A stretch of DNA of 64,000 bases. Source: Lingula anatina. Lineage: Eukaryota; Animalia; Brachiopoda. The position numbers were made by a program, and so were the translations under genes. The DNA is taken from assembly GCA_051362555.1 (NCBI GenBank), contig CM120640.1:56646788-56710787 (forward strand). Reading direction: 5' to 3'. This document shows, one piece after another, positions 8,628 through 63,381 of the stretch (positions are counted from its first letter, which is position 1; every line of letters starts with the position of its first letter). The notes under the pieces are model-generated. The model worked only from the letters and a program-made list of their open reading frames with translations, searched no databases and was not told the DNA's origin.

Positions 8628-11600
8628 ATGTCGTCCCAGTGTTCATTTCGTCAGACTGATGAGAAACATGTGACAACAGAAGTGGAACTAATGGAATGGT
8701 CTCCAAAAATGGACCTTTTGGCAGTGGCAAATATCCAGGGAGAGGTATGGCATTCACCCTGAATTGTAATGTTGTCTGCTTTTTGTAATCACTGTTTAAT
8801 TTTATTGTTATTCACATTCCAAGGATGTCATAAAATCCTTATGTCATACTTGTATCATATTTTGTAGACATGATAAAAGAATATATGAAAAAAAACTTTC
8901 AAAGGTTTTTTTTTAACATGCAGAGTAGAAATGCCTACAACTTCTCTCCAATAATTAATGCACCGTTTGCACGTGTCATTAGTCCAGATTATGTTTTTTT
9001 TTTTTTATTATTATTATTTCAGGTTTTGTTACACAGGCTATCATGGCAGAGGGTATGGAGCCTGCCACCTCCCACTGAGAACAGCAAAGTTAAAGCAATA
9101 GCATGGAGGACTGATGGAAAAGGTTTACTCCTTTATTTTTTTCTTCTTTTTGTGCTGAAAGAAATTCTGTTATCCTGGGTATTCTTAATGATAGTTGTAT
9201 TTTTTTCATTCAGTCTGTCTCAAAAAAGATTTGAAAACTTTTATTACTTGACCTCCGATTTAATTAAAAGTGTAGTAATGAAAAAATATAATACAATAAG
9301 AATATATAGACACTCAAAGGATTATGAAGGATTGTTGAAAATTGCGACAATGAAAGTATAGAATTTTTAAAATTACACTGCTGTCAAAAATGATTTATGA
9401 TTTATGATTGACACAAAGGTGCTAACTTTTGTTTAGACAAACATAGTATTTGAAAAAGGGACAACTGTCATCGTACATGTATGAATTATTCAAGTTTTTT
9501 TTCAATCTTTATTCAATTATCTTTTTAAAAAAGCATAGCAATAAAATCTGGCAATTTAAGTAAAATGCCACTTGTCCAATAACATTAGTTACAAGTTTTA
9601 GTCTCTCTTCAGTGTTAGCAGTTGGTTACATCAGTGGTGAGGTCCTGCTGTGTAATGTTGAGAACGCAGCCATCTTGCACACCCTTCATGTCCAGGGTGA
9701 GGTGTGCAGCATGCAGTGGATGTGTGACAGCATGGCACCAGCTGCAGGAAAGAAGTGCTATAAAGACAGATCTGCAGAATACCTACCAAAGATACCTACA
9801 CTTAGCAAAAGGTATTTCAAAAATCTTTTGTGACTTTTGATTAGTGTTTTTGTTTAGTAGGAAAATATGTTTTGTTTTTATTTGTTTCTTTTGTAACAAT
9901 TGTTGTAAAAGAAAACAATGAAACAATAATAAAAAAAAAATATTTTTAACATGTAGGTAAGAATGATTAGTTCTTCAGAAAAAAAACATAAGTCCAGGGA
10001 ACATAAACATCACAGAATTAACATACTATATTTTCAGTTATGGATCCCTAAGCAAAGGACACAGGTAATTACAAATGTGCATAACAAAAGTATAAATATT
10101 TGTTTAAAAGTTTAATAAAAATAAAGCAGAAGCTTATCTTGTAGTTATGTAGCAGTGGTATTATTTTGAGTAATTACATGCATACAAATTTGAATCTGTC
10201 TACGGATCTGCACCTACTTTTTTATATTGTTCAGCCACCTGGTGCATTGTTTTTTTTTTTCTCTCTCTTTTTAAGGTGGGGTGCAATATTTTTCATACGT
10301 TTTGTCTTGCACTTAGATGCTCAATTGATTAAGTGAAAAAATAGATTAAAAACAAAGTAAAAGACTAGAGATGATTAACTTTTCAAATCATTTTCTAAAA
10401 AGGTAGCAAAAGTATAACATATCGCCTAAGTTTTCTTTTTCTTCTATATAGCGAGGAAAATGTTGAAGATATGAAAAAATTAGCAGATCAAATTGGGTAT
10501 GTTCATTCATATATGTGTATTTTTTAATCATTATACATGATTACTTCTAATGGTATATCACAAGCATTTATATGTGTTGTTCATAGGCACTGTGATAGCT
10601 ATGATGTAATGCTGTTCATATGTACAATATATTGAGCCATTTGTAGTTATCATGATTTTCAATTGTTTATTGACATGTAACATTGACTGCCTATCTGATA
10701 TTTGTCAGTTGTACTTTAATAGAATTATACCTATAAATTTAGAAAAAAATATTGTCAAGTAAAATGCATCAGTCTGCTTTATGATGTATTTGCCTGAAAA
10801 GAAAAATGAAACTGACAATGATATCTTTCAGATTAAATATCCTTCTAATTGGAAACAATGACAGTATTGTAGAACTATTTGCCTATGGCATATTCCCAGT
10901 TGGAGCAGTAAATCTCAAACAGCACAAGAATACAAAGGTAATGGTGGCAAATAATAAAACACTGCATTTTGGTATTGTAGGCAAGTTCTTTTTAAGTGCA
11001 AAAGAGTTTTGGATGTTCAGGAAGAATTGAGAAAGATATTTTCTGTATTTTTTTTTAATTTTTATTTATTTATTATTATTATTTTTATTATTATTATTTT
11101 TTTTTTTTGCATTGCTGTGTTCCTACTTCTGAAGTGACCACAGAAAAATTACACAACAAAGGACTAAAATATATAATATAATAAAAATGTGATGTGGTCT
11201 TGTGATGTGATGTTATTTAAGCAAGCAGGATTGTAAATGGTTATGTTTCTGCTATGATACAGGCAGGCAGGATCATATCACTAAGTCTGTCTGAGGATCT
11301 GCACTTATTGTCCTTGATTGTACAGTCACCAAAGATGGAAGATCAACAAGACCAGGATGTTTATCTTCTGTCTGTGAGTCACCATATATCATTATGGTAT
11401 AATTTTAGCCATTGGAGAGAACATTGTGCTTTATTATTTTGATATAAAAGGACAGGAGTCTAACTGATGTTTTTGTGATCTCACTACTTACACAATCTTC
11501 AACATACCATTTTGAATTGCATCAGGTTTCTTAATTGTTAAAGCTATTTTTTAAAAATTTCATTGCAAAATAAAAATGTTTTGTTTCGGATTTAATTCTT

Positions 11601-14600
11601 TTTGTGTCACAAATATACCAAAACTATATGTTTATCATGTTTGTTGTTATTAATAGTATTATTATTCATAATTAGTTTGAGTCTACCCTTCTGGCATCAC
11701 GTTATGAAGAAGTGCAAGCTTTGGCTTTCAAATATGGGCATGTGGTTACATTACTCGAAGTAAGTTGTACATATTTCTTTAAACAACTAAATAAAATTAT
11801 TTGTTTGCCTATTGAATCAAGTGACCTTATTCATTAATATGAGAAATCAGCTGAACAAGATTAACTCAGATCAGTAATTTTACAGAAAAATGTGCTGACT
11901 TAAAGCCATGGGTGTACATGTAGCTATAGTCTTTCTTTTCTTCCCTGCTTTTCTTGAATTTTTGTTTATATCAGCATTTGAGGGTTATCATCAAACAAAT
12001 GTCTGAGGCCTGGGAGGATATTCTGCTGGAAATGGACTCAAAACTGGTGAAATTTGCTGAAGAAAAATATGTAAGTTCATATATTTCACATGTCATGTTG
12101 AGCTTAGAAATAGTGTTTGAATTACTAACATAACAGCATATGTGTTCATTAACTTGCTGACCCCGACATTTGTTTCTCTAGCAGAGATGTGGATTCTCCA
12201 AAGGCAGCCAGAGAAATCCAGCTATTAGTGTGATTAAACAAACTCTTTGTTAACAGTACAAAATATTCCCTATATACATATATTAAACACAACAAAAAAT
12301 GCATAATATATCAAAAGTGATTCTTTTAGTAAGGAACATTGAAGCCAATTAAAATACATCTATTAGACCTTCAACACAATTAAACTGAGGCTGATTTTAT
12401 CTTTAACCAAGGAGATGAAGCCATAATTGATGTTACTCAATCCTTTTACAACTGAAAGTATCCTTAAAAACTTAATTACAGTTCTTTCAAATGAATAACA
12501 TGCATTCAGATATTCAGGCAATTTTATTATTACTTTTCTGAAATTTCTTAGATAATTTTACCAAACTTTGACATAATTTTATTGAAAACAAGTTTCTCAA
12601 ATTATATATTTTTCCTTGAAGTCCTTTCTATGATATTACTTAAAAACACTAAATATCTGGATGTTAAACATGGCTCTTCACATATTTAGTATTTTTGTTA
12701 CAATATTTGCATTGCAGATGTTGGGGACAGGTACTGTGAGCAATGATTTCCTTGAGCTATTGCTGTTTGGAACTCCTAGGTGATGTATTTTCACTGTCTA
12801 TTCTTGTGTGGCATAGATACTTGATTGACAGTAAAGTGACATGAATATTTTAAAGGATGTTTCTCAAACAATTTTTTAGTTCATTAAGCAGTTTTTATTG
12901 CAAAGATTTTTATTTTACGAGCTGATATGAACATTTTAAGCATTATTATATTGTGTTTAATTTTAGTGATGAGTTGCAGTCCTTCCTTCTTCATGACTTG
13001 ACAGAGAAGGTATGTCCATAGTTTGTAGTTTATAAATATAAGCAATAAGTAGTGGATTTTGCTCATTGTCATTGATGTCCAAAAGCATGTTATCTTCATT
13101 AATAAAAAAAGATGACTTGAACTGAAATGTCACTATAGCACGCAAGGGCTATACAGATAAATTATAAGTCAAGGAAAAGCATATGTTGATTTGGTGACAG
13201 GGTTTCTAGGTCGTAGTAATGATCTGCTTTGCGTATCAATGGACGATCATTCACTTCAGCAAGTACACTAAGTAATGTCTCGTCATCCACTAATCTATTC
13301 CCCAAGATTGAATGCATGATTTTCCGTACTGATCTGATTTAACACTCCCATACGCCGCCTGCATGGCTTGCACTTGGAGGATTGAAATGCCATTGAAAGT
13401 TGCGTTGTAACAGAGAATCGTCGATTTTTTCTTGATTCCACTCCTGTAAAATGCGTTTAAGATCTGCTTCTGCACTTCTGAAATTGGTCCCGATATCACT
13501 GAATATTTCACACAGTGGTCCTCGTCGACTAATAAAATGCAAAACCACTTGTATGAATGAATCTGATGCCAGATTAAAGGATATCTCTAAATGCACTGCT
13601 CTTGTTGCCATACATGTAAAAATGCAACCATACTGCTTGTTTGTTCCTCTTCTGCATTTCATTAATAGCAGTCCAAAGTAGTCTACATCAACAATGAAAT
13701 GGTGGGTTCCCTGGAGTCACACGACTTCTTGGAAGTGGGGCTTTTAGCTCTTGCTCACGGTATCGACCCCTTAGTTCGGCTTCTGCTTCTTCAAATTCCA
13801 ACTGAGCATTAGCCATAGCAAGTGCTGCTTTTGTCTTTTGAGATTACGATACTGAATACAAACTGTTGGTTTTGAATTATCTATGGGATGGTCCAAAATC
13901 AACTAAGCTGCCGTGATAAGCCATGGTGGAAATTTCAGTGGGATGATAGAAGTGTTTTTACTTTATATAGCACGCAAGGGCTATACAGATAAATTAAAAG
14001 TCAAGGAAAAGTGTATGTTGTTCACTGGTCCTTGGTTTTATTTCACGCAGGAATTCACAAGACACGTAAAAACTAAAAAAAAAAAAAACAAAACAAAAAG
14101 AAAATTACAATAATGCCCTCACTACCAGTTATTTACGTGCTTAAATTTTTACATAAAAATGATAAATTTCAGTAATTATCAATAGTCAATAATAATCAAT
14201 ATTAACAGTATTAAAAACTCACCATTTCTGCCATTCCTTTGACTATAAATTGCAAGTAGCAAAAGTGAAAATAGCTGATCAAAAAGAAAGAGTACACTAT
14301 GTGTTCCTCCTACGGAGACACTGTGCTGAATGAAATAAAAAGCAAACTCGTGGGGCACCACCCTGAATGAAAAGCTGTCATATGCAAATGAATGTTTATT
14401 GCATTAGTTGAGCCAGTCACCTGGCTCCTCAACCTCAATAAAAGTAAACTAAACATTACAGTCACCTTTGTTTGGCCTCATCTTGTTATTCTATGAATGT
14501 TTTAAAGTTTGAGAAATTCACACTTTATGTAATATTTAATACTTTTTCCTTTAACTTCTTAGGGTTTAAAGAAATTGGGTCATTCCATAGAAACATCCTA

Positions 14601-17600
14601 TTCTAATATACAAAAACTGGTGTTGAAGCATTTACAGAGGTAAGTGAAAGCATAGTAGAAAAATTAAATGTCACATGTACACGAATAAAAAGCATCACGG
14701 ATTTCTTTAAATATATATCTGAAGTGTATTATAATGCTTCTAATTATGCCTTATTATTTATGAAATATTTGCTCTTGTTTTCCAGTGTAACCCAAGCACT
14801 CATTTACCATTTGAATGAGATAGCAGGGATGGCTAGTTGGTATGATAGATTTGGTCTGCTCGGCTTGTCCAGTCCCAGCGTACAAGAGGCTGTTCAAATG
14901 GCAGGAGCTTTTATGCTGAAAGCAGTAGAACTGCAGCAGTAAGTTGAAACAGTCATTTCTGATCACTTTTTCTATTTCCTTTGAAATAGGCAAAGATTGA
15001 TGAAACTCTGTTAAGTTATAGTTATGCAAAATATATTTTATTGTCTTATTTCTTAGGGTCATTGATGGGAGCATGAAAAATTTCAAAGCATTCTTTAGAT
15101 GGCTGTATGTTGGTATGTATATAAGTTGAAAATATGAGGCTTGATTAAACTTCACTTGAAGTCCTATAATTATCTTCAAAATATTGAGGCAGAATTCTTT
15201 ACAACATCCACATATTTTATCTCTTGTTTGAATCCAATTATGTACTTTTTTCATAAAAAAGCATGTAGCTTTTTTAATTACTACCTGTAGTGTTAGTTAT
15301 GATTAATTAGACTTAAGGAATATTTAACTGAATTACAAACTTAACTTAAAATATGTATTTTTATTTATTTAGTGATTCAGAGGCTGTCCCAGGAAGCTAT
15401 CCCAGCAGAGCTCAGCAAAGTATGGGTGATAGAATATAGATTGTAAACCTTTTTGACTGTTAATGTTTTCTTTGAGAGATTTTTAAATATTATTAATGAA
15501 AATGTCTTTGCCATGTAAATGTGTGTTAAACAAATATTTTATAAGTATTCAAATGTTACTTTTATTGAATTTTTATTATTTTGTCCACTTTTACCTAATT
15601 ACGATTGTCTTTTCTATAGATGACTCAACAAGATTTGAACTTTGTCACAGATTTCCTAAAGGAATATTTTACTGAGGTAAGTTGTTCAGTGTCCAAGACA
15701 AATGGTGGCTATAATATAATTCCAGAATTATTTGAAGCAACTTCAAATGTAATGAAATTGTCTGTCACCCATTATAATGTGATAATGTTAAACTGATTTT
15801 ACCTGGAGAGGTCTATAAGTCTGAAAAATTAATTTTCTTCTACTTATTACTTTTTGCAAAAGGGCAATTTCCTCCACAGGTTAAGCTAAGTCTGGACCAT
15901 TTGCTTATTTTTATAATCAATATAGCGCATTATGTCCATAATCCTTATTTGATTTTAGGAAATGGATGGCAGCTGTAAATCAGGATTCAAATTAGAAAAA
16001 GTGGGGCAGGTAATTATTTATGTTTTCTTTTTTATTATGATAGATTTTCTCTCATTCACATAATGTTTGGAGTATTTTTGAAATAGTTAAAGGGATAATA
16101 ACTCTTCATATGAGATCTATATTTCACAATAAAAACATTGTGAATAACTCATAGAAATATAATATATTCTGTTTAACCACAAAAACGGCAGTTATAGCTA
16201 TTATTCTGATATCTGAGCTTGTCTTTAGACCACGTGACCTCCATTGATGGCTATACTCTGTTAAAATCTCTTAAGAGATTTTAACAAAAAACCAAACTTT
16301 TTAGAAAAAAACCAGGGACTAACTTTGAATGTAAAAATGGATTCATTAACCATTGGTAAGTATGAGAAAATTGTTGTTCACTCCAGGAAAATTCATTTTT
16401 TGGCCAAAATGAAGAGTCATTATCACTTTAAGTACAATAGTGAAGTTATAAAAACAGAACTTTAAACTTAAATTTAACTTCAGTACTTGAAACATGAAGA
16501 GCTCCAGGAACCTCTTCCAAACACAGATAATCCATGGCTGAAGTTTGTCAATTCTAGTCAGCTGTTGCAAGGTGAGGTTACTTTAATTACTTTGACTTGA
16601 CAGTAAATTACAAATGTAAGTAATTTTTTGTTTGTTTTAATGTTTTTGGCGCTCAAAACTTTTTATGTAATGCTTTCTGTCATTAATTGTTTTATTTTAT
16701 TGTCAGTATGTTTTAAAAATGTTGTTTATATTATCTTTGACATTTATTTTAGAAAGCCCAGTGCTGTTCAAACCGCAAGTCAGACAGTCCTTGGTCCAGG
16801 TGGAAGATAATCTAAGAACTGCGATAAATGTTGCTCTTACTAAACCCTCTGTAAGTATTTTATACATTTTTTGAAACTGCAACAATATGCTTGCACGCGT
16901 TTGCAGATTCACAGCAGTGTATGTCACTATTATTTAAACAGGTCTACTATTCACATTACTTAAGCAGTGGTAGAAATTATTATGATGCAAACAAACAGCT
17001 TGTGCATTGATTTCTTTTCCAAAGCTGCTTGACATAATAATGGTGTGAAAAATGTAAAAGTTATTTTATATTACATATCACTAGAATGCTTTTAAAATTG
17101 TGAGCAGAATTGACATCAGATATGTGTTTGACACTTAATTTCTTTTCAGTAATATACAACATTTCTGTTTTAGAGTGCAATCGGGCAATCTTTACAATGC
17201 AGTGGATCTTCTTATCTGTTCACATATCAAAATATGTAAGTATATCAGTAACAGTAGCAAACAATTTTGTTGCATTACAGAAATAATTATGTACATGTAT
17301 ATAGCAGAAATTATGGTTGTTCATTCACTTAAACCTTAAGTAGCAAGTTTATATTAATTTATCTGTTTTATTTTTATGTGTGACATTTTCTTTTACAGGG
17401 ATGAAAAAGAAGAAAAAAATAAACTACTCAAACCAAAGTTTACACAGTGAGTTTTTTTTTTTTTTCTCTTTTCTTTTGGCAAAGGCAAGTTTCAAAACAT
17501 AGTTGCTTCCTCATGCCCATAAATTATGTGTAATTTGTTACCAAAAGGCCAAAGAAAACCACTTCTGTCATTTGAACGGTTTAAAAACTCCTTTCATAAG

Positions 17601-18743: not shown

Positions 18744-21700
18744 CAGCAGTACAGAAAACACTTTGCATCACCAATAATTCCCCTCTTTATACATGGTTTA
18801 AGGGACATAATGCAGATATCATGCTAAATGAACATATGTATTACAATGTTGCCTGTGGTAGAAAATGTTAGTATTGCCTAGCGAATAATGACACATTGCT
18901 CAGAGGAAGCTCTTTGAAATCACTACTAGTTTTCCTGTTGGTTGTATTTATGGTCAGTAAATGATTATACCTTCTGGTCATCTAACTCCCCAGATGACCA
19001 GTGGCTTACTGATCAAGGCAGACGCATGTTAATGTCATAAGTTAGAATGAATATAAGGCTTCATTCACATGGAATGTCTATTTTCAAAAAATCTATTTTC
19101 TATTCGCGCTATCTTATGATCACGGTCTGTGCCCTGAATATCCCGCGGCGTAATTACTGGCAGCGCGAGCCAGTTACTTATAGTAACTTATAGTAACTGG
19201 CTCGCGCTGCCAGTAATTACGCCGCGGGATATTCAGGGCACAGACCGTGATCATAAGACATACCGCAAATAGAAAATAGAATTTAGAAAATAGACATTGC
19301 ATGTGAATGAAGCCTAACTCACTGAATAATGCTTATTAGCATAGTTCTGGTCAGATGACAGAAAGGGATGCAGAACAAACAGAATGACTTCTTTAATGTT
19401 ATGATTTTAGAATTAAAGATTGCAGTTGGTCATGTAATTCTATAAATATGATACTTGGGTATAAAATTGTTTTATATATTTTCTTCTCCATTGCCATTTT
19501 TTTTATTTACAACACTGATTTCTTTGGCGATATGCTAATAAAATTTTATCTCCCATGCTGTTCATGAGTAAGTTACAAGTTAATAACAGGTGTGTAACAG
19601 TGCATTTTATCATTCATTTATCATATAAGCAATAATGCTTTGTACTTGATTTCTTATCATATAAGAAATTAATTGTAAAGTGTGAGAACTTTAATTATGG
19701 GACTAGTTCAATTGAGAATCTGCATATTTTAAGATACACAAATCTCGTCTGCTCTCCAGGAGCAGTTTGACTGGTCAGTTTATATCATTGTCTGCATCAG
19801 TGTATTTTCGTTTTCACTGCCTTGAATGAGCTCTGTGTTTGAAGTGGTGTTTAGGTCTGGTCTTGCTCCTAAACTTGTAAGTGGTGCTGTTGATGTGCAC
19901 TCTGGGATGCTTCTTGTGTGTCTGCTTTTTCACAGGACAGTGAGAATCTGGAAGAGTAAAATAAGTTATAACAAATGCATAATTATCATATAGACACTTG
20001 TAGTATTGAAACTTGGTATTAATCAGGTTTTTGTTAAGTCCAAAACATTTTATAATCAAACAATAGGTTAATTACCTTTAGATTACTAACTTATTTATCA
20101 AATTCAATTAATTACTCACACATATTTTTTCCTATTAAAAATAGTCATTATATATTCATTAGAAATTTAACCCTAAATACTTCATTTAAGATATACATAC
20201 TTTACATTGATTATTTAAAGGTTTGTGTTAAAAAGAGCAAATATGATATGGCCATACAGGAACCTTGGATTATACAAAGGCATGAGTTTTATTGATGTAT
20301 CACTTACAATGTTTCTACACAAACTTCATTTATCACATTAGTTTGAAGTTACCATAAGGTGAGAAAAATTGTTCAAGGGCCTCCTACCTGGATATCTAAG
20401 TGGATAATTAGGGGGATTTTGTCATGTGGTTATGAGTGGATTGCCTTATCACTTGGGCTTTAAGTGGTAGAGGACCATATGGTGCCCTTACCTTGGTTGA
20501 AGATTAGATACCCAAGTATTTGGTAGGGTTAGTGATTAGTCTACCTGTGTAGTGGATTTATTGCTACTTTTCACTTATTGACAATGGCAGAGTTTGTATT
20601 ACTTCAACTAATTTGGCAATATGTTGAGTGTAGTGGTATTTTGTGAACAGAACATCTGTTATATTTTTCTGGAGGTATATTGTGATGCAACTATGATACG
20701 GGGTTGAGAAATATTAGAACAAAGGGAAATGTACCTGTAGCAGGTTATGGTCCAGATGTTACTTTCAACGGATTGAAGATTTATAGCAAAAATTCAAGGG
20801 ATTTCATTTTTTTAATGTTTGGTCGTGATGATTATGTGATAAAGATATTGTGAAAGTCCTATCAGACTATTATGCAGTTTAATCAAGCTGCTACATTCCC
20901 ACACTCTCCTTATCTTTGCACGTGTCACACATTTTACCTTTCATGTTTGGCACAACAGAACCACAAGTAATATGTTGATCACCAGGATTTAAATATTCTT
21001 AATGGAGAAATGCAGCTCTTCCCCTTTATCTTCAAAGTTTATTTTCACATTTTGGTGTAAACAAAGATTATGATAGCAGAAAAAAAGATTTTTCAAGATG
21101 AAATTAAAGACAATATATTGAACATTTCATTGTTTAAGATGTAAGTTACAAAATAATGAATCTAATCAAGTGAATCTAATTCATCCAGAAGTGCCAGAAG
21201 TGGTTGTCTTTGTTGGGATGACACCCCAAAAACTTTATATCTCCAGGTTTACCAGATGTACACCTTTTTAGAAAATTGAGTTTTTTATCTTTAGTCTGTA
21301 GTAAGCCAATGCAAGTTTAAGTGTCTGTGGATTGTTTTGGTAGCATAAATGCACACAGATAAAGAATGTGGCACGTGCCACTTCGCAATGAAATTTACAT
21401 TTCAAAGTACACAGTTAAAAGGGACAGCTGTTTTGGCAAACCCAAATTACCATTAAAAGATGTCAGTGCATTGACTGTGTGCAAGTCTCATTTCCCATGT
21501 GAAAAATGACCTCACTTTAGCTTAACTGTCAGATAGAGAGGTGATAGCAACATATCTTGCATTTGATTTTCACCTGCAAATGTCTGCCTCTATTGTTCCT
21601 ATGTGGTATTATCTTTGATTTGTGGCATCTATTCACCTGCACAATACTAGTGCTCTCCACTTGATTGACACTAGGCTACATTTCAGATAATTACTTACAT

Positions 21701-24700
21701 CATAAGGTTGGTTGTATGATTATTTAGACATTCTATATTTTCATTGCATTTTGTATTTGCCATTCAGTTCAAACTTTTTTCAGTCAAAAAAATGGCTAAT
21801 CCATTTGATTTCTTGAGGATTTGAAATTTTGGTACCTTTTTTCTCTCCTGGATTTTGATTCAATTATTGCTCTTCTATTATAACTTAGTACATTTGACAA
21901 GGATGCTGTCTGGTCTTATTTTAGTTATGCAGAAGTTGCCACATGCACATGTGTCCTGATTAAATGTTTACTTCAATGTTTCAGTAAATAGTTAGCTCCA
22001 GTTTGTAATAATACTGTAACATACTGTATTCAGGGGCGGATTTAGGCCGTCTTCTGGGTCTTCTGGAAGACGGTCAGATTTTCAAGTTTACATTGACAGG
22101 TATCTATTTTTTTCTGTTGGAAGACGGTCAAAATTCGAGGATGGATCAACAAAGATAATTTGGAAGACTGTCAGAAAATAGCTCTGGATCCGCCCCTGGT
22201 ATTCATAGGGGTGTCAGAGATGACCACTTTTACTTATTTAAACTGCATAATTAAAAACGTAATTTGCAGTTAATCACAACAGGTGTCATGAATACACTAC
22301 ACTAAATATACGCATGTAAACAATGACATGAGACTCAAATCATCGATATGTTATCAGCATTTTAGGGTTCCTCACACATTCCTCATTTCCTCTCACAGAT
22401 AATTACTTGTTTTTATTGATATGATATATTACTGGCATTGTCTTTCTTTTTTTCCTTGTGTTAATTTAGAATTTTTACCATAAACTATGAAGTTGGTCTA
22501 TAATGGTGAGATTTTTAAAAACTGATTCAAAAATAGATGAGAGGCATGCCCCTCTTAGCAATTGTTTGCCTTAAATTTCTCCTTAGTTACATCCGCATTT
22601 CCTCCTCTTTCACTTCTAACAGCCAACAGTTATTTCCTTTCATGGGTCATAAATGACATTTTACAGTTTCATCACATCCCTGGCATTCATACATTTTTCC
22701 CTTTCTTACCTGTAAACTTGAAAGCATGCCAAGAGAGAAAAGGGCTCTCTATGCTTCCTACACCTGTGGCATAGGAATGAACTTATAGATAAGCTTAAGG
22801 CCTGGAGTTTTTTAAACTGCATGCAAATATTCACCCCCAGCCTATTGACCTCTCCTGCAGTATCTTGTTGTTGTAGTTTGAAAATGCCTGAACCCTGACT
22901 GAGACTTTGTTAATTTGTGATGATGCGCCTAAGCCACTTGTGTTTCTCGAGGCTTTGGTGCCACTGAAGTAGTGAAAATTTGGGAGAAGAAGTCGACATT
23001 AATGGGCTTTATTGACAAGATGTGCTATCTGGTGCCAGTAACATTAAGTAGACCAAAAACTTTCTGATTTGGAGCTCTAGCTGGTACACGTTAAGGTTTT
23101 TAGGCATATTGGCTCTAGGTTTGAATAGCAATAGATGTATTTATTTGAAGGAGAACAAAGTTTAATAATATGTTAAATTGTGTAGATGTTTACTACTGTA
23201 TGTTTATATTAGGTTATCATTAATAGTCCTATAATAGAAAACCCCTCCAGGTATTTTTTGTTTCTTTTCTTCATTTTTCATTTGTTTTTTCTTTTTTCAA
23301 ATTTTAAACGCACCTATATAAACTTACAAATAGCAAAAACAAATCACCATTTCTAATCTGTTTTCATATGAATGCATGTTATTTAACAAATTGCTCATGT
23401 GCTATAAATTTTTTAGCATACACAGACAATAAGCCTTTTAACCACACTAAAATGCAGAATCTCAGCAGATGTGACATCGTGTTGGGTTGAACTCTTGTCA
23501 TCTGCTACTTACGCCTTTAGCTTGCCACATGTTGACATTTTTTCCAGCTTTATTCTTTGTTGTCAAGGTTGCCAACTTTACACTCCCCAAACTACATAGG
23601 TCTGCAAAACCCCAAAACAACAGGAATTGATCCTAGAAAATGCATTGCAAACCCTGTGCTTTTGTGCAAATAGATAACTCATGTAAACTCAGTGAATCTC
23701 TTACCTGGGGTTTGCCATAATTCCACAGCAATGATATGGTGGCTTCTGGAAAAGTCTTTAATTTGATGAAAATGGTCACAGTCCCAAAGGGCCATATGAC
23801 CATCAGCATGCAGAGTCCTCTCTCTGAAAGTCAGCAGACGAACAATACCTTGTTTACCCATCAGAAATTTGGCAATAACATCAGGCCCACCACTGTGGAG
23901 CCTCAGAATGACAGGACTCTCATATTTTGCCGCTAGGAATGGTCCACTAGCTATGGCTCTGAATATGTAACGATGATTGTCTTTTCCACGTATAGTTTCA
24001 TTTTTTTGCACAGTGTAAGTGGGAAGATGGTTGACAACTGCATGTCTTCCTCCTATGGTATTGAGTGTATATGAGAGTCTCAGGCTGCTTGTGTTGTGTC
24101 TCCAGTGTTTAGTTTGTCTTCCTATTAAGGTGTAGAGTTCTGTGTCACTGTACTTCCCACCATAATGTCTGTAGCCTGGATAGTGAGCCTTTAGGTCTTC
24201 AAACTTTGGCAGTTGGAGCTTTTACAAAAAATGAAAAAAAAATTAAGGATTTTTGCAATTAGCTGTTGAAGAAGTGAACATAAAAGGAACTTTTGGTACA
24301 GTTTCCTGAAACCAAGTTATTTCATATTTTAATTCGATTTAATTGTAGAAATGCTTATAATTTGCTGAATCTATGAGTTTGTTTGATAAATCTCTTTGTT
24401 AGATAACATAAGAAGTGTAATTACATTAAATGCCTTTAAGGCTTCAAGGTGCCATAAGTCTTTTCTTACATGGTTAAACATAAATACTTACAGAATTTGC
24501 CATTGCTATAAAAACACTCCAAAAAGGAACAATCCATGTAAGTTTCCACCCCATCTTTTTTCCTTTTTTCTCCAGACTTGTATTTTTAAGTTCTTCTTCA
24601 GTTCATGAATATCTGCTTACATATGTTTAGAAAACTTCATTAACTGAGAGTTTTATCTGTCCTCTGTGCTTCAACCATAAAGTGTTGTTGTATTGGCTGT

Positions 24701-32831: not shown

Positions 32832-35800
32832 CTAAGAAAATTCATATATAGTCAATGTTAACAAGTAAAAGATGATTGTAAAACTGGAGTTGCAACTGGC
32901 CTTGGAGGTAGAAAAAGACTTTTTAAATTCTTTGATGTAGATCTGATACTCTGCAGCAAGTGTATCAGATGGAGTTTGTCCCTCTACATGTTTAACAAAT
33001 ATAGGTGGGTTTTCCCAATCAAACAAAGGGATAGCCACTCCTAAAACTTTACCATTAAATTTTCTTATAAATTCTAAATATGATAAATGTCTGTACACAG
33101 GTTCCACTCCATATATGGTCTTTAAAACTCCTGTTGGTTCCATAAGAAACCTATCAACAATTTCACTTGGGCGAATATATGAAGATACATTGTCATAAGT
33201 TAATCGAAGTAATGTTTTCTCAGGGGTGTATGAGATGTTAATAATTCCCAATCCTGAATGAACATAAACTCCTGTGAAAGGTTTGCTTTGTTCAAACAAC
33301 AGTTGGCTGCTTTGTAGGCTTTGTCGTTTCCACTCATGCTGTTGGAGACTTGATTGCTTCTGTTGAGATCGCAACACAATGCACGCTTCACGCTCATTAA
33401 TCTGTTTAGGAAATCCCAGCACAGCGTCTGCCAGCAGGCTATGTAATAACTTGTGTGCCACTTCGCTCACACCACTCCCAGCAGGTCCATTGCTATTGGT
33501 GAAAATACCTAATTTGTATTGAGGCAGGATGGTTAATTTTGATGTGTAGCCAAAAAGGTCTCCTGAGTGTGTCAATACGGGATCGCCTGCGAGGAAAAAT
33601 GTGTTAGATGTGAACTTTCACTATTACTTCGTATTATTTTGCAATGACAAAACAGTTGTTGTTTTTCTTACTCTGTTCTTAAGTTAACGTTTATACTTTT
33701 AATACATAGTGACAAAACGAATTGGCTTTTCGAGCTTTTGAATAGGGTGTAAATTACTTGTTTATTTATAGTCTTTGCTTAGTGTACCAATTATGCTCAT
33801 AAAGTAGACGTCGCACGACAACTAACCTCTATAATTTCCCGTTCCCCAGCCAAGTCCGTAACCGTCTTCCACCATTTGTGTGAATTTATCGTTTTGCCTC
33901 ACTTTCGACATCAGTTGCTGACTTATCTGCTGCGTGTGTGTATCTTGCAGCAATTCGGAGTTAATCAGCTGATGGCCATCAAGGCTTTTGCCTGCACTGA
34001 CGTGAAATTTCAGCCATTTTACCATGTCGGCTGCTGTAGAGCATATAGAGTCGGCACCATCAAGGCTAAATTTTCTAAAACGAAGAAGTTATATTAAACT
34101 TATACAAACTTCCACCGATGTTTAACGTTATTCTGCAGTAATTCGCGAATTTTAATTCAAAACAAGAATTAGCCTAGGTACGTGTTTGAAAATGTCCCTA
34201 AGTCGTATTTTTATGTCAAGTAGGTGCTATAAGGCCACTTATTTATTTACCACTTTATACCTTAAAACTATCAAATCCTTAAATCCTAATCAACATTTCC
34301 TTCTGAACTGCGACTAATGGGTCGAGCAATGATTCGTGAGAGAAAATTCGTTAGAAAAATTTTTTTTCTCGAGGAAAATTAGATTTGGTGTGAAAATACT
34401 GCATAGAATGCGTTTGATCTTAATTCTTTTTTTAAACATTCTTCGTAGCGTTGTTTCGTGTTCGTGTTAACTCTGCAAAAAATAAGCCAATGAATTGTAG
34501 GCCTACTATAATAAATATAACAATGAATTGACACATTTCAATGAATCAGTGCCCTATCCTGAACCATTAAAGCTACCCTTTTTAACACAGCAAGTACAAA
34601 TAATTATAATTAGCTATTTATTTACCTATGTAGAAGTGGGTCCACATTTGCCACTGTTTCTGTCGTCCTAATCAAAGCATGTACAAATCTTACTGAATTT
34701 GTATGAAGCTTACTGGTGAAGGTCGTTGACGACATTTTAAGTGGATCAAAGATACGCTGCTGCAAAAGTTCTTCCCAAGGTTTCCCTCCAAGTTTCTCAG
34801 AGACGCGAGCTGCTAAGAAGTACATCCAGTTGTTGTAAATAAACCTATGCCGCAGCGGCGCAGAGGGGTGGAGGAATTTTAAACGCCTGAAGTAGACCAT
34901 GATTTGTTACACAATAAAATTATTCATTGAAAAAGTACACAATCTTAACAATAGCATGAGAAAATTTGAGACTATAATAAATTTATCCAGAAAATGGCTT
35001 GGGTGAAAAAAAAACTGGTGCAGTTGATGAGCAAGTTATGTCCTGTCTTATCATTTCGCCAATCTCATGAAATTCTCATGGAACAGAGGCGACGCTAAAG
35101 TAGACCTCTGAGGCTGACATCGATATTTCTTCCTAACATCCTTTTCAACTCAATTTTTATTGTTGATTTGCGTAGTACGTTAGTGGATACATGATCTATT
35201 TGCATTTCATACGACTGCCACACACTCGTTTTGTAATGTGCCACACTTTACTTGATTTATGCCACGTTACGTGGATATTGTCACTTTTACAGTTTTCACG
35301 ACCCACTTCAATATCTATAAGACATAAAATTGGGATGTTAATATAGATAGAGCACACTGGTTTTAAATAGAAATACTTTAAACTAACTTGTAAAATTCTT
35401 TCCTAAAAGATGTAGAGAAACGGGCAAGGTCAAAGCGTGGTAAACCCATGCGGTGTGCGAGTAGGTCACGAAGTGACGCAGTCTCTGAGCTGTTGACGTC
35501 CTCTAAAGAAAAGTCGTGACCGAGGATGGCTCGAATAGGAGTGTCCCATGTAACGCTGAAGACAAAAATAGATGAAAATAAAATAAACATGGTATCCTAA
35601 TGGTCACTCTGCATTTGTTCTAAATTTTTTATCAGAAACAGCAATTTAAACAATGGACAAAATTTTGTCCATTATTAAACAGACCTGCTGTTATAACAAC
35701 TTATATTGTATTTTCATTCGCTACCACTGCAAATAAACGGTAAGATCTTTTTTTAGAAGCCGTGCAATACAGCAAAATTAATAGAATTTGGCAAAATTTC

Positions 35801-36540
35801 TTTCTTTTTTTTTTTTTTTTTTTTTTTTTTTTGTGATTTATAACGTCTTTTAAGGAAAATAGGTCAGGTCATTGTCAGTTTATACAAAATGACTGTACCG
35901 GAGTTTTGTATTATATAAATGGCATAAGTTTGCTATAAATCGTTGGTAAATCAGGAAACACCTGGAATCGATATCTTTTGAAGTAAATGTAAAGGGAAAC
36001 CGAAGGGAACGTAATTTGTGCATTCAGGAACAATACAGGTGATCGATACTTGTATTTGATAGTTGGAAGTTGGCACATAACGGCGCTAAAAGACCGCTGC
36101 ATTCGCAAACTATTAAATAATCTACATGTAACACCACCTACTGCATGTCTCCTCTTTCATTTTTTTTTTTTTTCAAAGTACAAAGCAGTTACTCACTTTT
36201 TAGCGTTATCTCCCAACAAGCTTGCGATAAGAGTTGACGTAAATGCTTTAGTCAGAGATGCGATGCAAAACACAGACTCTTCGTTCACAAACGTCTGCCG
36301 TTTCTCATCACTATACCCAAGTCCTTTTAAGAATACTGTCGTGTTTCCTTTTACGACGGCAATGCTAAGTCCGGGTATATCTCCGCATTTCATAAGTCGC
36401 CGTACTCTTTCTTCCAAGATAGATGTAAATCGTGTTACGTTTTTCTCTGAAAACCATTTCTGACAATCCACTGCCCTAGTAATGAAACATGAAATACATA
36501 AAACCCAAGAGAAAATGAACTGTGCTTTGAATTGTTTCAT
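32832..36540 (-). CDS. Secreted beta-lactamase/penicillin-binding-protein-fold serine hydrolase (class C/R61-like), 5 exons, possibly GPI-anchored
   Basis: Exons 36197-36540, 35388-35555, 34626-34886, 33827-34074, 32832-33586, in phase. Signal peptide MKQFKAQFIFSWVLCISCFITRAVDC. Motifs: IPGLSIAVV, FCIASLTKAF (SxxK), LRDLLAHRMGL, FIYNNWMY (YxN), IFDPLKM, YGLGW, THSGDLFGY. Small residues followed by a hydrophobic C-terminus. Confidence 0.92.
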
Positions 36541-37429
36541 TTCTCTCTATGAACTGGTGAAAACAGAGCAAGTATGTATAAAGTGGGTTGTTCTATTTTT
36601 CGCGGTATGTCAAAAACATTTCCTGACCCGGAAGTTCCGTGCATTTGCCGAGAAAGTGGGTAGCACGCGGAAGTCGTCGAACCGCTGGTGCCACCGCAAC
36701 TTTGTCACCGATAAATATTGATTAAGCATAGTTTCCGGCGGCTCGTGTGTTGGGGATAATAAATATCAAGAGGCTGTTTATCATATGCCTTTATTCACAC
36801 TTGATTTATCATCCGGATGCGCGACGAAACAAAATTCGTACCACAACAAAAGGAGCATTTTAAATGAAAGTTCCACTGGGTTCACTGTAGATGTTTTAAT
36901 CAAGCAGAGAGTGTTTAAGTATACAGTACACGTTGACTTCCAAGAAAATTTATCAAAAAATTTGGGAAAATTTTGTAATTTCTTTTAAAAGTGATTTCGA
37001 AATATGCGATAGCGTGTTTTCAGTGTTTTGCGGAGAATCATTCTTGAATGAATGGACCCATGCCCCTTCTCGACATCCTGGATCTGCACGTACCTGTACA
37101 TAAATTCCTCTAAATGTAGTTCCACCCTAGGCAAAAGCATATTTTTTTCGTGTATAAATTTCATTTTTCTGCATTCAAAATACAGCAATTATATTACGTG
37201 AAGACATACATACAATCAATTGTATAGTCCTATTGTTTCTAGTTAAAATGAATACTTATCATGACTTATAGGCACTATTTATTGTCTAAAACATAAAAAC
37301 TCAAGTCATGTAGTAAGTTTCCATCGCACCGTCTTTTAATAAGGGCAAATTTGTGAGACCGACGTAGATACAGCGGAAAATTTCACTCGCTTATGAGAAA
37401 AAAATCCACTTTTTTTTTACTTCTACCTA

Positions 37430-43836: not shown

Positions 43837-45622
43837 ATAAGTAAAATTATTATCAGTTAAGAAATTAAAACTACCTGAAATTAAAACTATCTGGAAAACC
43901 GACCCCTAGCATTTCATCCACTGAACATTGTTATCAACAATTTGTCATTCTAAGGGAAAAAGTATCAGTTTCTATATACATTTGTCCTAGTAAAATTTAA
44001 TGGAAATCTGTTGAAGCCTTTGAAATGTGGACAATAAATGGAGTGGGTTTTGGATGATTAGGGAGGAAGATTATACATTGTGTGTCTTTCAATGATTGAT
44101 GAGTCTACAAAAAAGAAGAAAATAATGGAATAAAAAAGAAGGGATGGTTTAATTAGTGGGCCTTGTTGGTTGACAGGTAATACATTTTCATGGATTGTTA
44201 TAAAGATAAGGCATAAGGTTTGTGGCTTTAATGTGAGACGCCATGTGCAGCAGAAAAAAATGTGCCAGTAATTCTGTAGGAATTGAAACACGAGTTTACA
44301 AATATTTTTATGTGAACTAAGATTGCATTAAATTTTTTTTCAACTGGACATAGGTAAAACAACTGTTTAGTGTTGTATATAAATAATGGTCACCGGTGCC
44401 AGTCTGTGCTTTTGCAATCTTTGTCACCATTGTTTCCCTACAAATTTGTTTACTCTATTACTACTTTACTTTGCAAGAAAGTGTAGAAATCACAGTGATA
44501 CACAATGAGTGACAGGAAAAACACTGATTTAACATTAAAATTGTACAAAATGTGTAACTTAGTTAATTGTTTTAGGTTAATCAAAAAGGCATGAGACCAT
44601 GTGAAGTTTGCAGTGAAAAGGCAGCATTGACTTACATTTCTTTTTGCTTTAAAATTCAGATAAAGAGTAAATGCAAAATCACATTTTTGTTTTAATTAAA
44701 ATCTTTTACTGTAGTTCACTGTGGATAAAATGCAGAACAAATCCAAAGATAAGCACAACTGGATTTTTTAAAAAGGTTATTGCTTTTTGTGATATTTACT
44801 GGCACTTTATTGTTCTCCATTTAACATCCCAATTTCATTTCTGTTTTAGTTGAGATTTTCTGTGATACTGACTTTATCTAAAGCCTGAAGAGAATGGACA
44901 GGATTTCCTTCAAATCACATGCAGGTGAGATTTAAAGATGTTTACTTCTGTTTTTGTTAGATTCTGTCATTTGCTGTGTAGCAAAATAAAAATCCCTTAT
45001 GGTTTTTAATGCATGCTTTGATGCAAGTGGTGAAAAACAAAGGTAGAAAAAAGTGGTTTTGTCTCTTAATATGTTAACCCATAGGAATGCTTAATACAGG
45101 TGTGTCATTCCATTATGAGGTAGACCTTATATTTGTCCTTGATTTGAAAATCTTACAAGAAATGGTTGTCATGCTGATTCATAGCTACTTTATTATGTCT
45201 AGACTTCAATGAGTATGTACTGGCTGTGTAAAGGTAGTTTATATGCATATACGTCATGCTTGCACTGATGATACAAATTATTGATCATTAAAGGGTAATT
45301 TCTCCCTTTCAGGTTGAGGTCCTTCCTGTGAACATGTAGAGGGGTTCTTGCAGTAGAAGCTTTTCACAGATATAACAGATCTGCTGGTCAATTTGATATG
45401 GAGTTCAGAACTGCATGTGTGCATTTTAGTAATTCATTACCCAGGATGTATATGATTTAGCAGTTAAAACAAGGACAGATGGTATTCACGTGATGGTAAA
45501 ATCCAATCAAACAAAGCCTAGAATATGTACACAGTAGTTGAGGTACCTCATATCTTGGACAAGTTTCTCAGCTGACAGAAGACAGCCTGGAAGGTACCAT
45601 ATTTGTGGCCTGCTGAGAAAGA

Positions 45623-46408
45623 ATGAGGATCCACCCTTCCAGAGTAATAAGGGCTCTGCTCTCTGCAACAGTTGTCCTTTTTATAATATTTAATGTTCAT
45701 CTCTTTGTGTATCAGCATACACATCCCATGGATGGAGCAGATACCTTGCAGGGTGGTCAACGTGCCACATTTTCTCAAGAAATCCGCTCTGTGGTCAAGG
45801 CTCAAAATGCATTAACTGGAGACAAATTGAGCAACCAAAGGACTAATGTCTCAGACATTACTAATATTAAGGGAATGGTAACAAACAAAGCCAACAAGAA
45901 AATAGAACACACTTGGGAAGATATAGATGAAAGCAACAAAACAGCTATTAAACTTGCAATGGACAGAGTCAACCAGGAAGAACTTGTTTACAATTTAGAC
46001 AAATTCAAGCTACAGTTCACCCCAAACAGTGTTGTAATTGTCGTGCAGGTTCATGACAGGATACAGTATTTGAAATTTCTCCTGCGTTCTTTAAGTGAAG
46101 CCTATGATATACATAAGGCTTTGCTGATTATCAGCCATGATTTCCTGAGCAATGAATTGAACAGAGTAGTACAGAGTATAGATTTCTGCCCTGTAAGTAA
46201 AATATCCTCAGTTCATTTTGTTGGAGGTAACTGTTGAACAAGCTCATGATAGATGCAAATTGTTTTTGGAGTTAGAAATTATAACTAAGAGAGCCATACA
46301 TTTTATTAAAATGACCATTTTGCTTGGCATTACTTGAATACTAAAAATGTTTTAATTCTCAATATTCCAACACTCATCCCTTGACTCTTGAACAATGATG
46401 ATTGATTG

Positions 46409-61440: not shown

Positions 61441-63381
61441 TCACTCGTCATCAGTTTCTCCATCACTGGATAAAGTCTGTTGGCACTGAGATCTTGTGGG
61501 AGACTGAACAACATGAGCAATTTTCCTATAGCGGTCCAGCCATTCGTCCATCATTTGGCGAACCTGTGTGGGCTGCTTGCCAAACTTCTGCTGTGCAACA
61601 AGTAATCCACCATCAGTGACACAACAGTCTAACCAGTCCCTGAGAATGGCTTCCTCTTTACCAGTCTGCGTGAGAGGAAATAATAGAGTTGACAAACAAA
61701 TTATCGATGTATAATCTATCATGCAAAATGCAAAAAAGCTAACTGCATTACGTCCCATTAGATGAACTGCTTTTTATGACACATCCTATTTGAGAAGTTT
61801 CAACTAACACAACTACATATCAAGTTAAAACATACCAGAAAAAAACTAATTGTAAATACAGTGGCAAATCAGGTACCTTGACTAATGGCATATTGCCACC
61901 TTAAAGCTACCATGATAACAATTTGAAGGTAAAGCAACTCTACAACAAACATAAACAGGTTCAAAAAAGATGTGTGCACGGAGCAATTACTTACCTCTGA
62001 GGCTGTGAGAAAATGAACAGGGAGAAGCTTCCCTTCACTGTCTGTCAATGGCAAGTAAGCAGTTTGAGCATCCTCATTGGTATCTATATTAGCACCAGCT
62101 CCTACGTTCTCATCTGTGTCTATCTCCATGGCAACTAAGGCAGAAAAATGCCCCCTGGTGTAGCCCAGAGCAATGGGTGTCTTCCAACAGAAACTCTGCT
62201 CCCACAACAGAGGCAGGTACACACCTAGAACATGATATAAAAATTCAATTTTACGTCACAAAGAAAATATGCATGATATGTACATTTGAAAAAACTTGAC
62301 ATGGAATTTTAAGTCACTTATGCTTTCTAAAAGTCTTCAAACTGTCCCAGTGATATGGTACAAAATGCAAGAGTCAAATGAAGACTTAAATGAAAATAAG
62401 TGTACAAACAAACACAGGAATTATTCTTCACATGAGATGCATTTACCTTGAAATCTTGCAATTCCAATATTTTCTCCTCTAAAATTCTTGACAAATTTAA
62501 CTCCATAAACAATTATAGGTCTCCTTAGGATATGTGCCACTGCAAAAATATGGATCTGTTCCAGCGCAGCTCCTAAAGGATAAGAATACATATAAATTGT
62601 TATAGTAAGAAGATAACGCTTTTTTAAATGTCTACAACTCAAATTTGAAATCATCCTGGCAATAGTCTTCATTGTGAAACATTCTTTCAAGATATTCTAA
62701 CCTGCTTTTTTCCCATGCTTTAGAATTGACTTTAAGAGTCAGTATAATATCACAACAAAAACTTACCTGGTTGGCCAGCTAGACTGAGAAGTATGGCCCA
62801 GTCTTGCTGCCACTGGTTCTCCTCTAGACTGAACTGCATGGTCTGGGCCTGTACAGACTCATACTCTTTCCATCTTGGATAGAATCTACAAACAGCAAGG
62901 TCATCCTTACAGATTACCAGATTTCCCAATGATATCATATGAAAACTTAATTTTCAACATATAAACACCTAAGATGATTATTAATTTCCCTTGATTTTAA
63001 AAGTGATTTTCTCAAGAGAACAAAAAAAAATTTTTTTTTAAATATTGTTCATTTGAATGTTGTGTATTTTAGCACAACAATCCTGTATTCCTGCTACAAA
63101 TACAATAATAATAATAATAAACAATACTTGTATTTCCAAATATTCTTGACACAGGAAGGGTTAGAGTGTAGAGGTCACTCACGTGCAAGCTCCCTCAGTC
63201 AAGCTGTCTGACATGGCCCTCCGTAATGTGTTGTCCCTGTCAAAAATTCCCCAAGTGGACTGGAGCACTGAGTCTAGGAGGCAGTCCCCAGCTGTACGGT
63301 TCCACAGAGCATACAACCTACTGCCAAGCCTCTCTGTAATCTCATGGCTCCAATTGATGATTTGCTCTTCTACTTCCAATT
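61441..63381 (-). CDS. ZRANB1: Ubiquitin thioesterase ZRANB1/TRABID, last 5 exons (OTU domain); the gene continues beyond the window
   Basis: Exons 63183-63381, 62767-62885, 62447-62572, 61995-62224, 61441-61665. Motifs: SRLYALWNRTAGDCLLDS (catalytic Cys), LEQIHIFAVAHILRRPIIVYGVK, GVYLPLLWE, PIALGYTRGHFSALV (His), DWLDCCVTDGG, and the C-terminus SSDGETDDE*. Confidence 0.95.

What the first reader, a model, noticed from the sequence alone, without database searches (positions are those of the whole stretch)
23796..24095. Catalytic Cys replaced by Ser while His is kept: pseudo-amidase or Ser-nucleophile variant
Seen: the position equivalent to the Tae4 nucleophile (N-x-C-x-x-R-x-S) is Ser, codon AGC at 24089-24087, one base from TGC. 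The His of GHMALW (23798-23796) is intact. The Ser also makes N-T-S an N-glycosylation sequon at the active site of a secreted protein. Inferred: the protein may be a non-catalytic peptidoglycan binder or sensor, or may have been co-opted for another role. That would differ from the lytic Cys-dependent Dae enzymes.
Basis: partly seen in the sequence, partly recalled or inferred. Interest (0 to 1): 0.85.

Follow-up and report, generated by a model that had tools for sequence, protein, structure and literature searches.

The report
Disarmed bacterial cell-wall toxin in invertebrates
This lamp-shell gene is a spliced, expressed relative of a bacterial cell-wall-cutting toxin whose cutting cysteine is replaced by serine; every animal-type relative retrieved (molluscs, annelids, a ribbon worm, a bryozoan) also lacks the cysteine, so it is likely an old, disarmed enzyme kept for a binding job, possibly holding bacterial cell wall in immunity.

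Summary
Observation confirmed. The gene is Lingula anatina LOC106168566: 236 aa, three exons, both introns seen in RNA reads, Tae4 fold (Z 18.1, rmsd 2.1 A). Ser65 (AGC, 24089-24087) aligns with the Tae4 nucleophile Cys, His162 is intact, and reads show AGC or AGT, never TGC. The change is not special to Lingula. None of 87 non-redundant clade members has Cys (Ser 63, Ala 13, Thr 8, Asp/Lys/Gly 1 each), while 44 of 44 bacteria-like relatives keep Cys+His. His is Arg in 15 of 87, and the triad Asp is missing at both known positions. The site changes 12 times on the animal tree and 0 times on a bacterial tree of equal length, while the gene stays under purifying selection (pN/pS about 0.07). Best reading: an old lophotrochozoan pseudo-amidase (dead about 0.8), likely a secreted binder of bacterial cell wall (about 0.5, untested). 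A Ser nucleophile is unlikely (about 0.1). The N-T-S sequon is incidental (4 of 87). A Cys-less Dae4 is already noted in Nematostella, and Chou 2015 could not be read, so novelty is moderate.

The parts
24492..24554 (-). Coding exon 1: Met1-Ser21, a signal-peptide-like hydrophobic N-terminus (judged by eye; no signal-peptide predictor was run)
   Evidence: tblastn of P0002; joint 24218/24492 in 20+4+2 RNA reads; joined exons equal P0002
23705..24218 (-). Coding exon 2: the whole Tae4/NlpC-P60 domain (Leu22-Pro192)
   Evidence: Pfam PF14113 33.5 bits, cut-off 27; AlphaFold2 pLDDT 77-97 per 10-residue block over the domain; Foldseek and VIA matches to Tae4
24087..24089 (-). Ser65 codon (AGC; AGT in a second haplotype) at the Tae4 nucleophile-Cys position
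24087..24095 (-). N63-T64-S65 sequon; not conserved in the family
   Evidence: 4 of 125 rows, the same 4 among the 87 non-redundant
23796..23798 (-). His162, the former catalytic His; kept here, Arg in 15 of 87 relatives
23790..23792 (-). Ala164: His+2 position, the triad Asp of SmTae4/AtTae4 type; lost
   Evidence: Asp in 89% of bacteria-like rows, 0% of clade rows
23763..23765 (-). Gln173: His+11 position, the triad Asp of EcTae4/StTae4 type; lost here (Gln, Glu, Lys, Asn or one Asp in relatives)
23778..23780 (-). Cys168, invariant in the clade; predicted disulfide partner of Cys196
   Evidence: 0 parsimony changes in 87 rows; 48 of 48 rows with the spliced-type Asp193 have Cys at +3
19814..19947 (-). 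Coding exon 3: D-S-H-C196 plus a basic, His-rich, low-confidence tail (net +13 and 7 His in 40 aa)
   Evidence: joint 19947/23705 in 39+5+3 RNA reads

Best explanation
The gene encodes a Tae4-fold protein with Ser65 where the bacterial toxins have their cutting cysteine; it is likely secreted, likely catalytically dead, and likely kept as a binder of bacterial cell-wall material in innate defence. Shown: spliced mRNA, Tae4 fold, loss of the Cys and of the triad Asp, one Cys-less clade across five lophotrochozoan phyla, and purifying selection on the rest of the domain. Inferred: the Cys became Ser once on the long stem of this clade, with Ala, Thr and others arising later. Also inferred: the protein is exported, Cys168-Cys196 close a disulfide, the old substrate groove binds a ligand without cutting it, and the basic tail adds electrostatic grip on anionic bacterial surfaces. 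I put 'no amidase activity' at about 0.8 and 'ligand is peptidoglycan or the bacterial surface' at about 0.5; the confidence given is for the whole mechanism.
For: 0 of 125 animal-type rows (0 of 87 non-redundant clade rows) have Cys, against 45 of 45 (44 of 44) bacteria-like rows with Cys+His. The site needs 12 parsimony changes on the animal tree (length 29.2; 64 of 169 positions are more constant) and 0 on the bacterial tree (length 28.1). His is Arg in 15 of 87, forming one branch. Both known triad-Asp positions are lost; in StTae4, Ala replacement of Cys44 or His126 and mutation of Asp137 each abolish toxicity (PMC3695027, passages). The clade has support 100/99 with the two catalytic columns removed (32 of the 87 rows sampled). 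Selection: 9 synonymous and 2 non-synonymous SNPs in exon 2, pN/pS 0.07, binomial p 6e-5; L002/L005 dN/dS 0.08. Expression and splicing. Immune hint: Nematostella has two tae4 homologues, both induced by cGAMP through NF-kB, only one with the Cys (PMC8713801, passages); its 'Dae4-like' gene has log2FC 8.3 (supplement rows). Precedent: mycobacterial RipD is a non-catalytic NlpC/P60 peptidoglycan binder (PMC12067865, passages).
Against: No binding or activity data exist for any member. Only 12 of 27 columns conserved in bacteria-like Tae4 stay at least 85% conserved in the animal clade; W60, N63, R108, V109, D158, D164 and Y177 are largely replaced. So the groove may no longer recognise the peptide stem. 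Lingula itself keeps 20 of the 27, including N63, R108 and His162, and Ser+His occur together in 52 of 87 rows, which leaves room for residual activity. No Cys-bearing animal Dae4 was retrieved, so the Nematostella genes are not shown to belong to this clade and their induction is only an analogy. One RNA run (X17, 9.5 million reads read) showed no exon coverage; tissues and immune state are unknown.
Confidence: 0.5

Rival explanations
1. Dead enzyme co-opted for a role unrelated to peptidoglycan: a secreted scaffold or protein/glycan binder in mucus, cuticle, shell or extracellular matrix, using a new surface.
For: The clade has its own strongly conserved set that bacteria-like rows lack (H80, G113-P114, C168, E187, among others) while losing bacterial cleft residues. 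It has a long stem (1.16 changes per site) and basic His-rich tails in most named members.
Against: The structural core around the old site (R68, S70, N74, L165, W166, W189) is invariant and His162 is kept in 70 of 87. The Cys-less anemone paralogue is immune-induced.
Confidence: 0.3
2. Active serine-nucleophile amidase (Ser65-His162-Gln/Glu173) in Lingula and molluscs, with activity lost separately in annelid and Arg-type lineages.
For: Ser is the commonest residue (63 of 87) and probably ancestral. In the 51-row mollusc branch the site is Ser in 48 and Thr in 3, with His in all 50 rows that cover it. All 4 Ser codons seen (Lingula, L003, L004, L006) are AGY. Papain-like families with a conserved Ser exist, and some C-to-S mutants keep partial activity if the pocket is acidic (PMC10318531, passages); most relatives have Asp63 next to the Ser.
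Against: The site swaps to Thr, Ala, Asp, Lys and Gly (12 changes), unlike a nucleophile. There is no triad acid in Lingula (Ala164, Gln173, Asn63), and its domain is basic (net +8, mature pI 10.2). Ser65 is the first residue of the helix, where Ser, Thr and Asp are favoured for structural reasons (recalled knowledge).
Confidence: 0.12
3. The Ser was selected to create an N-glycan at Asn63 that plugs or regulates the site.
For: The sequon exists in a likely secreted protein.
Against: Only 4 of 87 clade members have it; Asn63 is Asp in about 80% although Ser is kept. Asn63 is simply the invariant bacterial Asn (45 of 45).
Confidence: 0.03
4. Assembly error or decaying pseudogene.
For: AGC is one base from TGC.
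Against: Reads and an independent contig show AGC or AGT only. The frame is intact and spliced, pN/pS is 0.07, and relatives lack Cys too.
Confidence: 0.01

Closest known systems
Bacterial Tae4 T6SS amidase effectors (StTae4 4jur/4hff/4j30, EcTae4 4hfk/4hfl, SmTae4/Ssp1 4bi3, AtTae4 6ijf)
   Same: Fold (Z 18.1, rmsd 2.1 A, 148 aligned to 4jur_A; Z 17.8, rmsd 2.4 A, 146 aligned to 4bi3_A), Pfam PF14113, N-T-x-x-x-R-x-S helix motif, G-H-x-x-L-W strand, His kept.
   Different: Nucleophile Cys is Ser; the triad Asp is absent at both His+2 and His+11; introns, a signal-like N-terminus, a clade-specific Cys pair and a basic tail are added.
Animal Dae4: Nematostella nvDae4 (LOC5507694, active, Cys63) and its paralogue without the Cys (PMC8713801; presumably 'Dae4-like' LOC5507684)
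   Same: Animal-encoded Tae4 homologue with a secretion signal; Cys-less copies exist there too.
   Different: nvDae4 is a shown lytic amidase. Here the whole retrieved clade lacks Cys. Neither Nematostella protein was identified among my hits, so orthology is untested.
Mycobacterial RipD (Rv1566c), a non-catalytic NlpC/P60 peptidoglycan binder (PMC12067865)
   Same: Same superfamily, catalytic residues replaced (Ala83-Ser132-Glu144), low-complexity C-terminal tail; works like the best explanation.
   Different: Bacterial and a different NlpC/P60 family; binding is shown for RipD and untested here; His is kept in Lingula.
Papain-like families with a conserved Ser for Cys (menin, APC5867, DUF2145, DUF2272, DUF3750; PMC10318531)
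   Same: Ser at the nucleophile site next to a kept His.
   Different: Ser is not fixed here (63 of 87). The passages I saw do not list Tae4/Dae4 among these families (0 occurrences of 'Tae4' in that paper's main text).

Membership tests
Tae4 amidase (PF14113), as an active enzyme | Pfam profile above gathering cut-off | tested here: met
   33.5 bits against 27, E 5e-8
Tae4 amidase (PF14113), as an active enzyme | Tae4-type NlpC/P60 papain-like fold | tested here: met
   All 11 Foldseek hits with E<=0.001 are Tae4 chains; VIA Z 18.1 and 17.8, next best 7.1
Tae4 amidase (PF14113), as an active enzyme | Catalytic Cys at the start of the core helix | tested here: not met
   Ser65; 0 of 87 clade rows have Cys
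Tae4 amidase (PF14113), as an active enzyme | Catalytic His in G-H-x-x-L-W | tested here: met
   His162 in Lingula; 70 of 87 in the clade
Tae4 amidase (PF14113), as an active enzyme | Triad Asp at His+2 or His+11 | tested here: not met
   Ala164 and Gln173
Tae4 amidase (PF14113), as an active enzyme | Cleaves the gamma-D-Glu-mDAP bond of peptidoglycan | not testable with these tools
   Needs an assay
Dae4 (domesticated Tae4 in animals) | Embedded in an animal genome, with introns, expressed | tested here: met
   Two GT-AG introns spliced in RNA reads; neighbours include ANAPC4 and MGAT2 exons
Dae4 (domesticated Tae4 in animals) | Secretion signal | tested here: inconclusive
   Hydrophobic N-terminal helix 8-18 in its own exon; no predictor was run
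Dae4 (domesticated Tae4 in animals) | Origin by transfer from bacteria, shared with published dae4 genes | tested here: inconclusive
   Animal-type rows form one side of a 100/99 branch against bacteria-like rows, but the root was imposed, no donor test was run and published Dae4 sequences were not in the tree
Dae4 (domesticated Tae4 in animals) | Cys-dependent lytic activity as in nvDae4 | tested here: not met
   The Cys is absent; the C63A mutant of nvDae4 is non-lytic (PMC8713801). Activity itself was not assayed
Ser-nucleophile papain-like proteins | Ser and His fixed across the family | tested here: not met
   Ser+His in 52 of 87; 12 changes at the Ser site
RipD-like non-catalytic NlpC/P60 binders | Binds peptidoglycan without cutting it | not testable with these tools
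   Needs an assay

The most novel reading that the evidence does not exclude
Lingula and mollusc Dae4-like proteins are working serine-nucleophile peptidoglycan amidases on a papain-like fold (Ser65-His162-Gln/Glu173): a natural thiol-to-hydroxyl switch made in the lophotrochozoan ancestor, giving an oxidation-proof secreted antibacterial enzyme, with annelid and Arg-type copies dying later. Lingula, which keeps 20 of 27 bacterial-conserved columns, is the best place to test it.
Probability: 0.1. Interest if true: 0.85.

Novelty: new variant of a known kind. Interest (0 to 1): 0.47.

Why it matters
Domesticated bacterial toxins (Dae) are known as lytic weapons. This clade shows another fate: the toxin was disarmed early and then kept under purifying selection in brachiopods, molluscs, annelids, a nemertean and a bryozoan. 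If it binds peptidoglycan, it is an unrecognised innate-immune binder in farmed shellfish (oyster, mussel, scallop, abalone), paralleling how catalytic and non-catalytic PGRPs split (recalled). It also warns that the 'Tae4 amidase' annotation of these genes is probably wrong about activity. It offers a clean natural test of whether Ser can replace Cys in a papain-like fold. None of this is shown yet, and a Cys-less Dae4 has been mentioned before.

Tried and rejected
No whole genome is held for this window, so Cys-bearing paralogues elsewhere in the Lingula genome were not searched; within the window there is one copy. The run search listed no RNA holder; raw-read runs of the same species label were laid instead. 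Three word-index searches and one full HMMER search returned no Cys-bearing animal Dae4; the queries were mostly Cys-less, so this is not proof of absence. Three distant rows (P0054, P0056, P0071; Asp at the site, no His) are unnamed, so their taxon and any pre-lophotrochozoan origin are open. dN/dS between Lingula and other taxa was saturated: 20 of 21 pairs, only L002/L005 usable. Cys168 as a migrated nucleophile was set aside: it lies six residues down the same strand from His162 and co-occurs with Cys196 in 48 of 48 rows; distances were not measured. The ESM Atlas gave only Tae4 clusters as leads. Earlier scan notes held nothing on this gene or family. Chou et al. 2015 and Zhang et al. 2013 (JBC) are not held. 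No complex prediction was run, as no partner is claimed.

Full report
Gene. The finding lies in exon 2 of a three-exon gene on the minus strand (24554-24492, 24218-23705, 19947-19814). The joined exons translate to P0002, named by its source as Lingula anatina LOC106168566, 236 aa. RNA reads splice both introns: 20+4+2 reads over 24218/24492 and 39+5+3 over 19947/23705 in runs X14, X20 and X21. X15, X16 and X22 also cover exon 2, with 59, 56 and 8 reads. X17 shows no exon coverage. So 6 of 7 RNA runs laid carry the transcript. There is one copy in the window; the rest of the genome could not be searched.

Observation. Codon 24089-24087 is AGC and 23798-23796 is CAT: Ser65 and His162. The exon scores above the Pfam Tae4 cut-off. 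The AlphaFold2 model (mean pLDDT 85.6) matches Tae4 chains: all 11 Foldseek hits at E<=0.001, and VIA Z 18.1, rmsd 2.1 A over 148 residues, against 7.1 for the next family. A family profile aligns n-t-s-a-l-R-l-S on N-A-C-P-I-R-M-S of StTae4 and EcTae4, so Ser65 occupies the nucleophile site. This residue register is from sequence; the fold tools give ranges only. No read or contig shows TGC. The only variant in the codon is synonymous AGT in a second haplotype (X10 contig; X20 10 of 10 reads; X21 3 of 3; X22 2 of 2).

The change is clade-wide. Four protein searches and two cluster look-ups gave 186 stored sequences. I left out P0001 (intron read-through of the query) and two repetitive false hits (P0057, P0061). 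Of 137 animal-type rows, 12 did not cover the helix motif. Of the other 125, none has Cys, while 45 of 45 covered bacteria-like rows (of 46) have Cys+His. 'Bacteria-like' is my label from sequence; most of those rows are unnamed. After a length filter and 90% de-duplication, 90 animal-type and 44 bacteria-like rows remain. Of the 90, 87 form the main clade: Ser 63, Ala 13, Thr 8, Asp 1, Lys 1, Gly 1; His 70, Arg 15, Tyr 1, gap 1. All 29 rows I labelled from source names are lophotrochozoan: a brachiopod, molluscs (bivalves, gastropods, cephalopods, a chiton), annelids (Capitella, Paralvinella, Owenia), the nemertean Tubulanus and the bryozoan Watersipora. An IQ-TREE tree on 53 rows (32 of the 87, 3 outliers, 18 of the 44) with the two catalytic columns removed gives the clade 100/99 support and a stem of 1.16 changes per site. 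Ser-bearing rows, Lingula among them, branch first there, so Ser is probably ancestral, but the inner order is weakly supported and differs in the FastTree tree. The exon-2 end is shared: genomic loci L001, L002 and L004-L006 show the same P-G|GT donor as the window.

Why likely dead. Tae4 needs Cys, His and an Asp at His+2 or His+11 (PMC6277958, passages), and mutating any of the three abolishes StTae4 toxicity (PMC3695027, passages). Lingula has Ser65, His162, Ala164 and Gln173. On trees of near-equal length (29.2 and 28.1), the nucleophile column changes 12 times in the animal clade and never in the bacteria-like set; His changes 3 times against 0. Eleven other positions never change in the clade (Y34, G36, G42, R68, S70, N74, P123, L165, W166, C168, W189). 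The protein is therefore conserved while its former catalytic site is not. Selection is purifying. Of 11 exon-2 differences between the reference and the second haplotype, 9 are synonymous and 2 are not (pN/pS 0.07, p 6e-5). The X10 contig has 12 differences, of which 10 were listed, and hid 97 rows, so the count may be slightly incomplete. L002/L005 give dN/dS 0.08; the other 20 pairs are saturated.

What it likely does. The N-terminus looks like a signal peptide (by eye). Cys168 co-occurs with Cys196 in 48 of 48 spliced-type rows, suggesting a disulfide, and the tail is basic and His-rich in most named members. This fits an extracellular binder. Two analogies point to bacterial cell wall. 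RipD is a non-catalytic NlpC/P60 peptidoglycan binder (PMC12067865, passages). Nematostella has two tae4 homologues, both induced by cGAMP through NF-kB, and only one has the Cys (PMC8713801, passages); the supplement lists 'Dae4-like' at log2FC 8.3 (rows), and I infer that this is the Cys-less one. Against this: only 12 of 27 bacterial-conserved columns stay conserved in the clade, and several near the old site are replaced, so the ligand may have changed. I give 0.5 to a cell-wall binder and 0.3 to another extracellular role.

Rivals. A Ser nucleophile is not excluded. Ser+His occur in 52 of 87 rows, the mollusc branch is nearly fixed for D-T-S plus His, Lingula keeps 20 of the 27 bacterial columns, and Ser-bearing papain-like families have been proposed as active when the pocket is acidic (PMC10318531, passages). 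But the site is not fixed, there is no triad acid in Lingula, and the Lingula domain is basic: about 0.1. The sequon is in 4 of 87 rows and arises only because the bacterial Asn-Thr is kept before the Ser, so it is incidental. Error or pseudogene is refuted.

Novelty. Dae4 genes and one Cys-less copy are in print. Searches for dae4/Tae4 in eukaryotes, molluscs or Lingula, and for five orthologue gene ids plus the Pfam accession, found no paper describing a lophotrochozoan Cys-less clade; these cover open-access text only. Chou et al. 2015, which defined dae4, is not held (I saw only its reference entry). From memory it included mollusc and annelid dae4 genes, so its alignments or extended data may already show the substitution. 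PMC3759425 and PMC4832377 (passages) added nothing on this. Verdict: a real, ancient pseudo-enzyme variant of a known kind; interest 0.47.

Noticed in passing
window 32832-36546 (-): Exons of a beta-lactamase/serine-hydrolase-fold gene with an intact S-x-x-K motif (S-L-T-K; Pfam PF00144, E 5e-15) about 8 kb from the Dae4-like gene. This is another fold related to bacterial cell-wall enzymes; linkage in other species was not checked.
   Followed up: partly
window 22030-22200 (intron 2): A roughly 170-base high-copy interspersed repeat: depth in the hundreds in all four RNA runs, reads 90-95% alike with unrelated flanks; probably a MITE or SINE-like element.
   Followed up: no
P0022, P0040 (Tubulanus), P0125 (Watersipora) and 12 more: A sub-branch of 15 rows has Arg in place of the catalytic His (for example D-A-R-I-A-L-W), often with an acidic residue at position 62, which suggests a remodelled charged pocket.
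   Followed up: partly
P0054, P0056, P0071: Unnamed, distant Tae4-like proteins with Asp at the nucleophile site and no His, sister to the main clade (97/86 among themselves). They may mark an older or separate Cys-less animal lineage; taxon unknown.
   Followed up: partly
P0010/P0173 (Mactra), P0034/P0156 (Dreissena): Two paralogues with near-adjacent locus tags in each of two clams; one Mactra copy has Thr at the site.
   Followed up: no
L003:323-856: This relative runs through P-D-S-N-C with no intron at the exon-2 end, so the contig is probably transcript-derived or an intron-less copy.
   Followed up: no
window 8834-14942 (+), 45617-46237 (+), 61869-62255 (-), 13339-13716 (-): Ordinary neighbours: ANAPC4 exons, MGAT2, a weak OTU-domain match below cut-off, and an integrase-like frame of a retroelement recognised by eye (no Pfam hit).
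   Followed up: no
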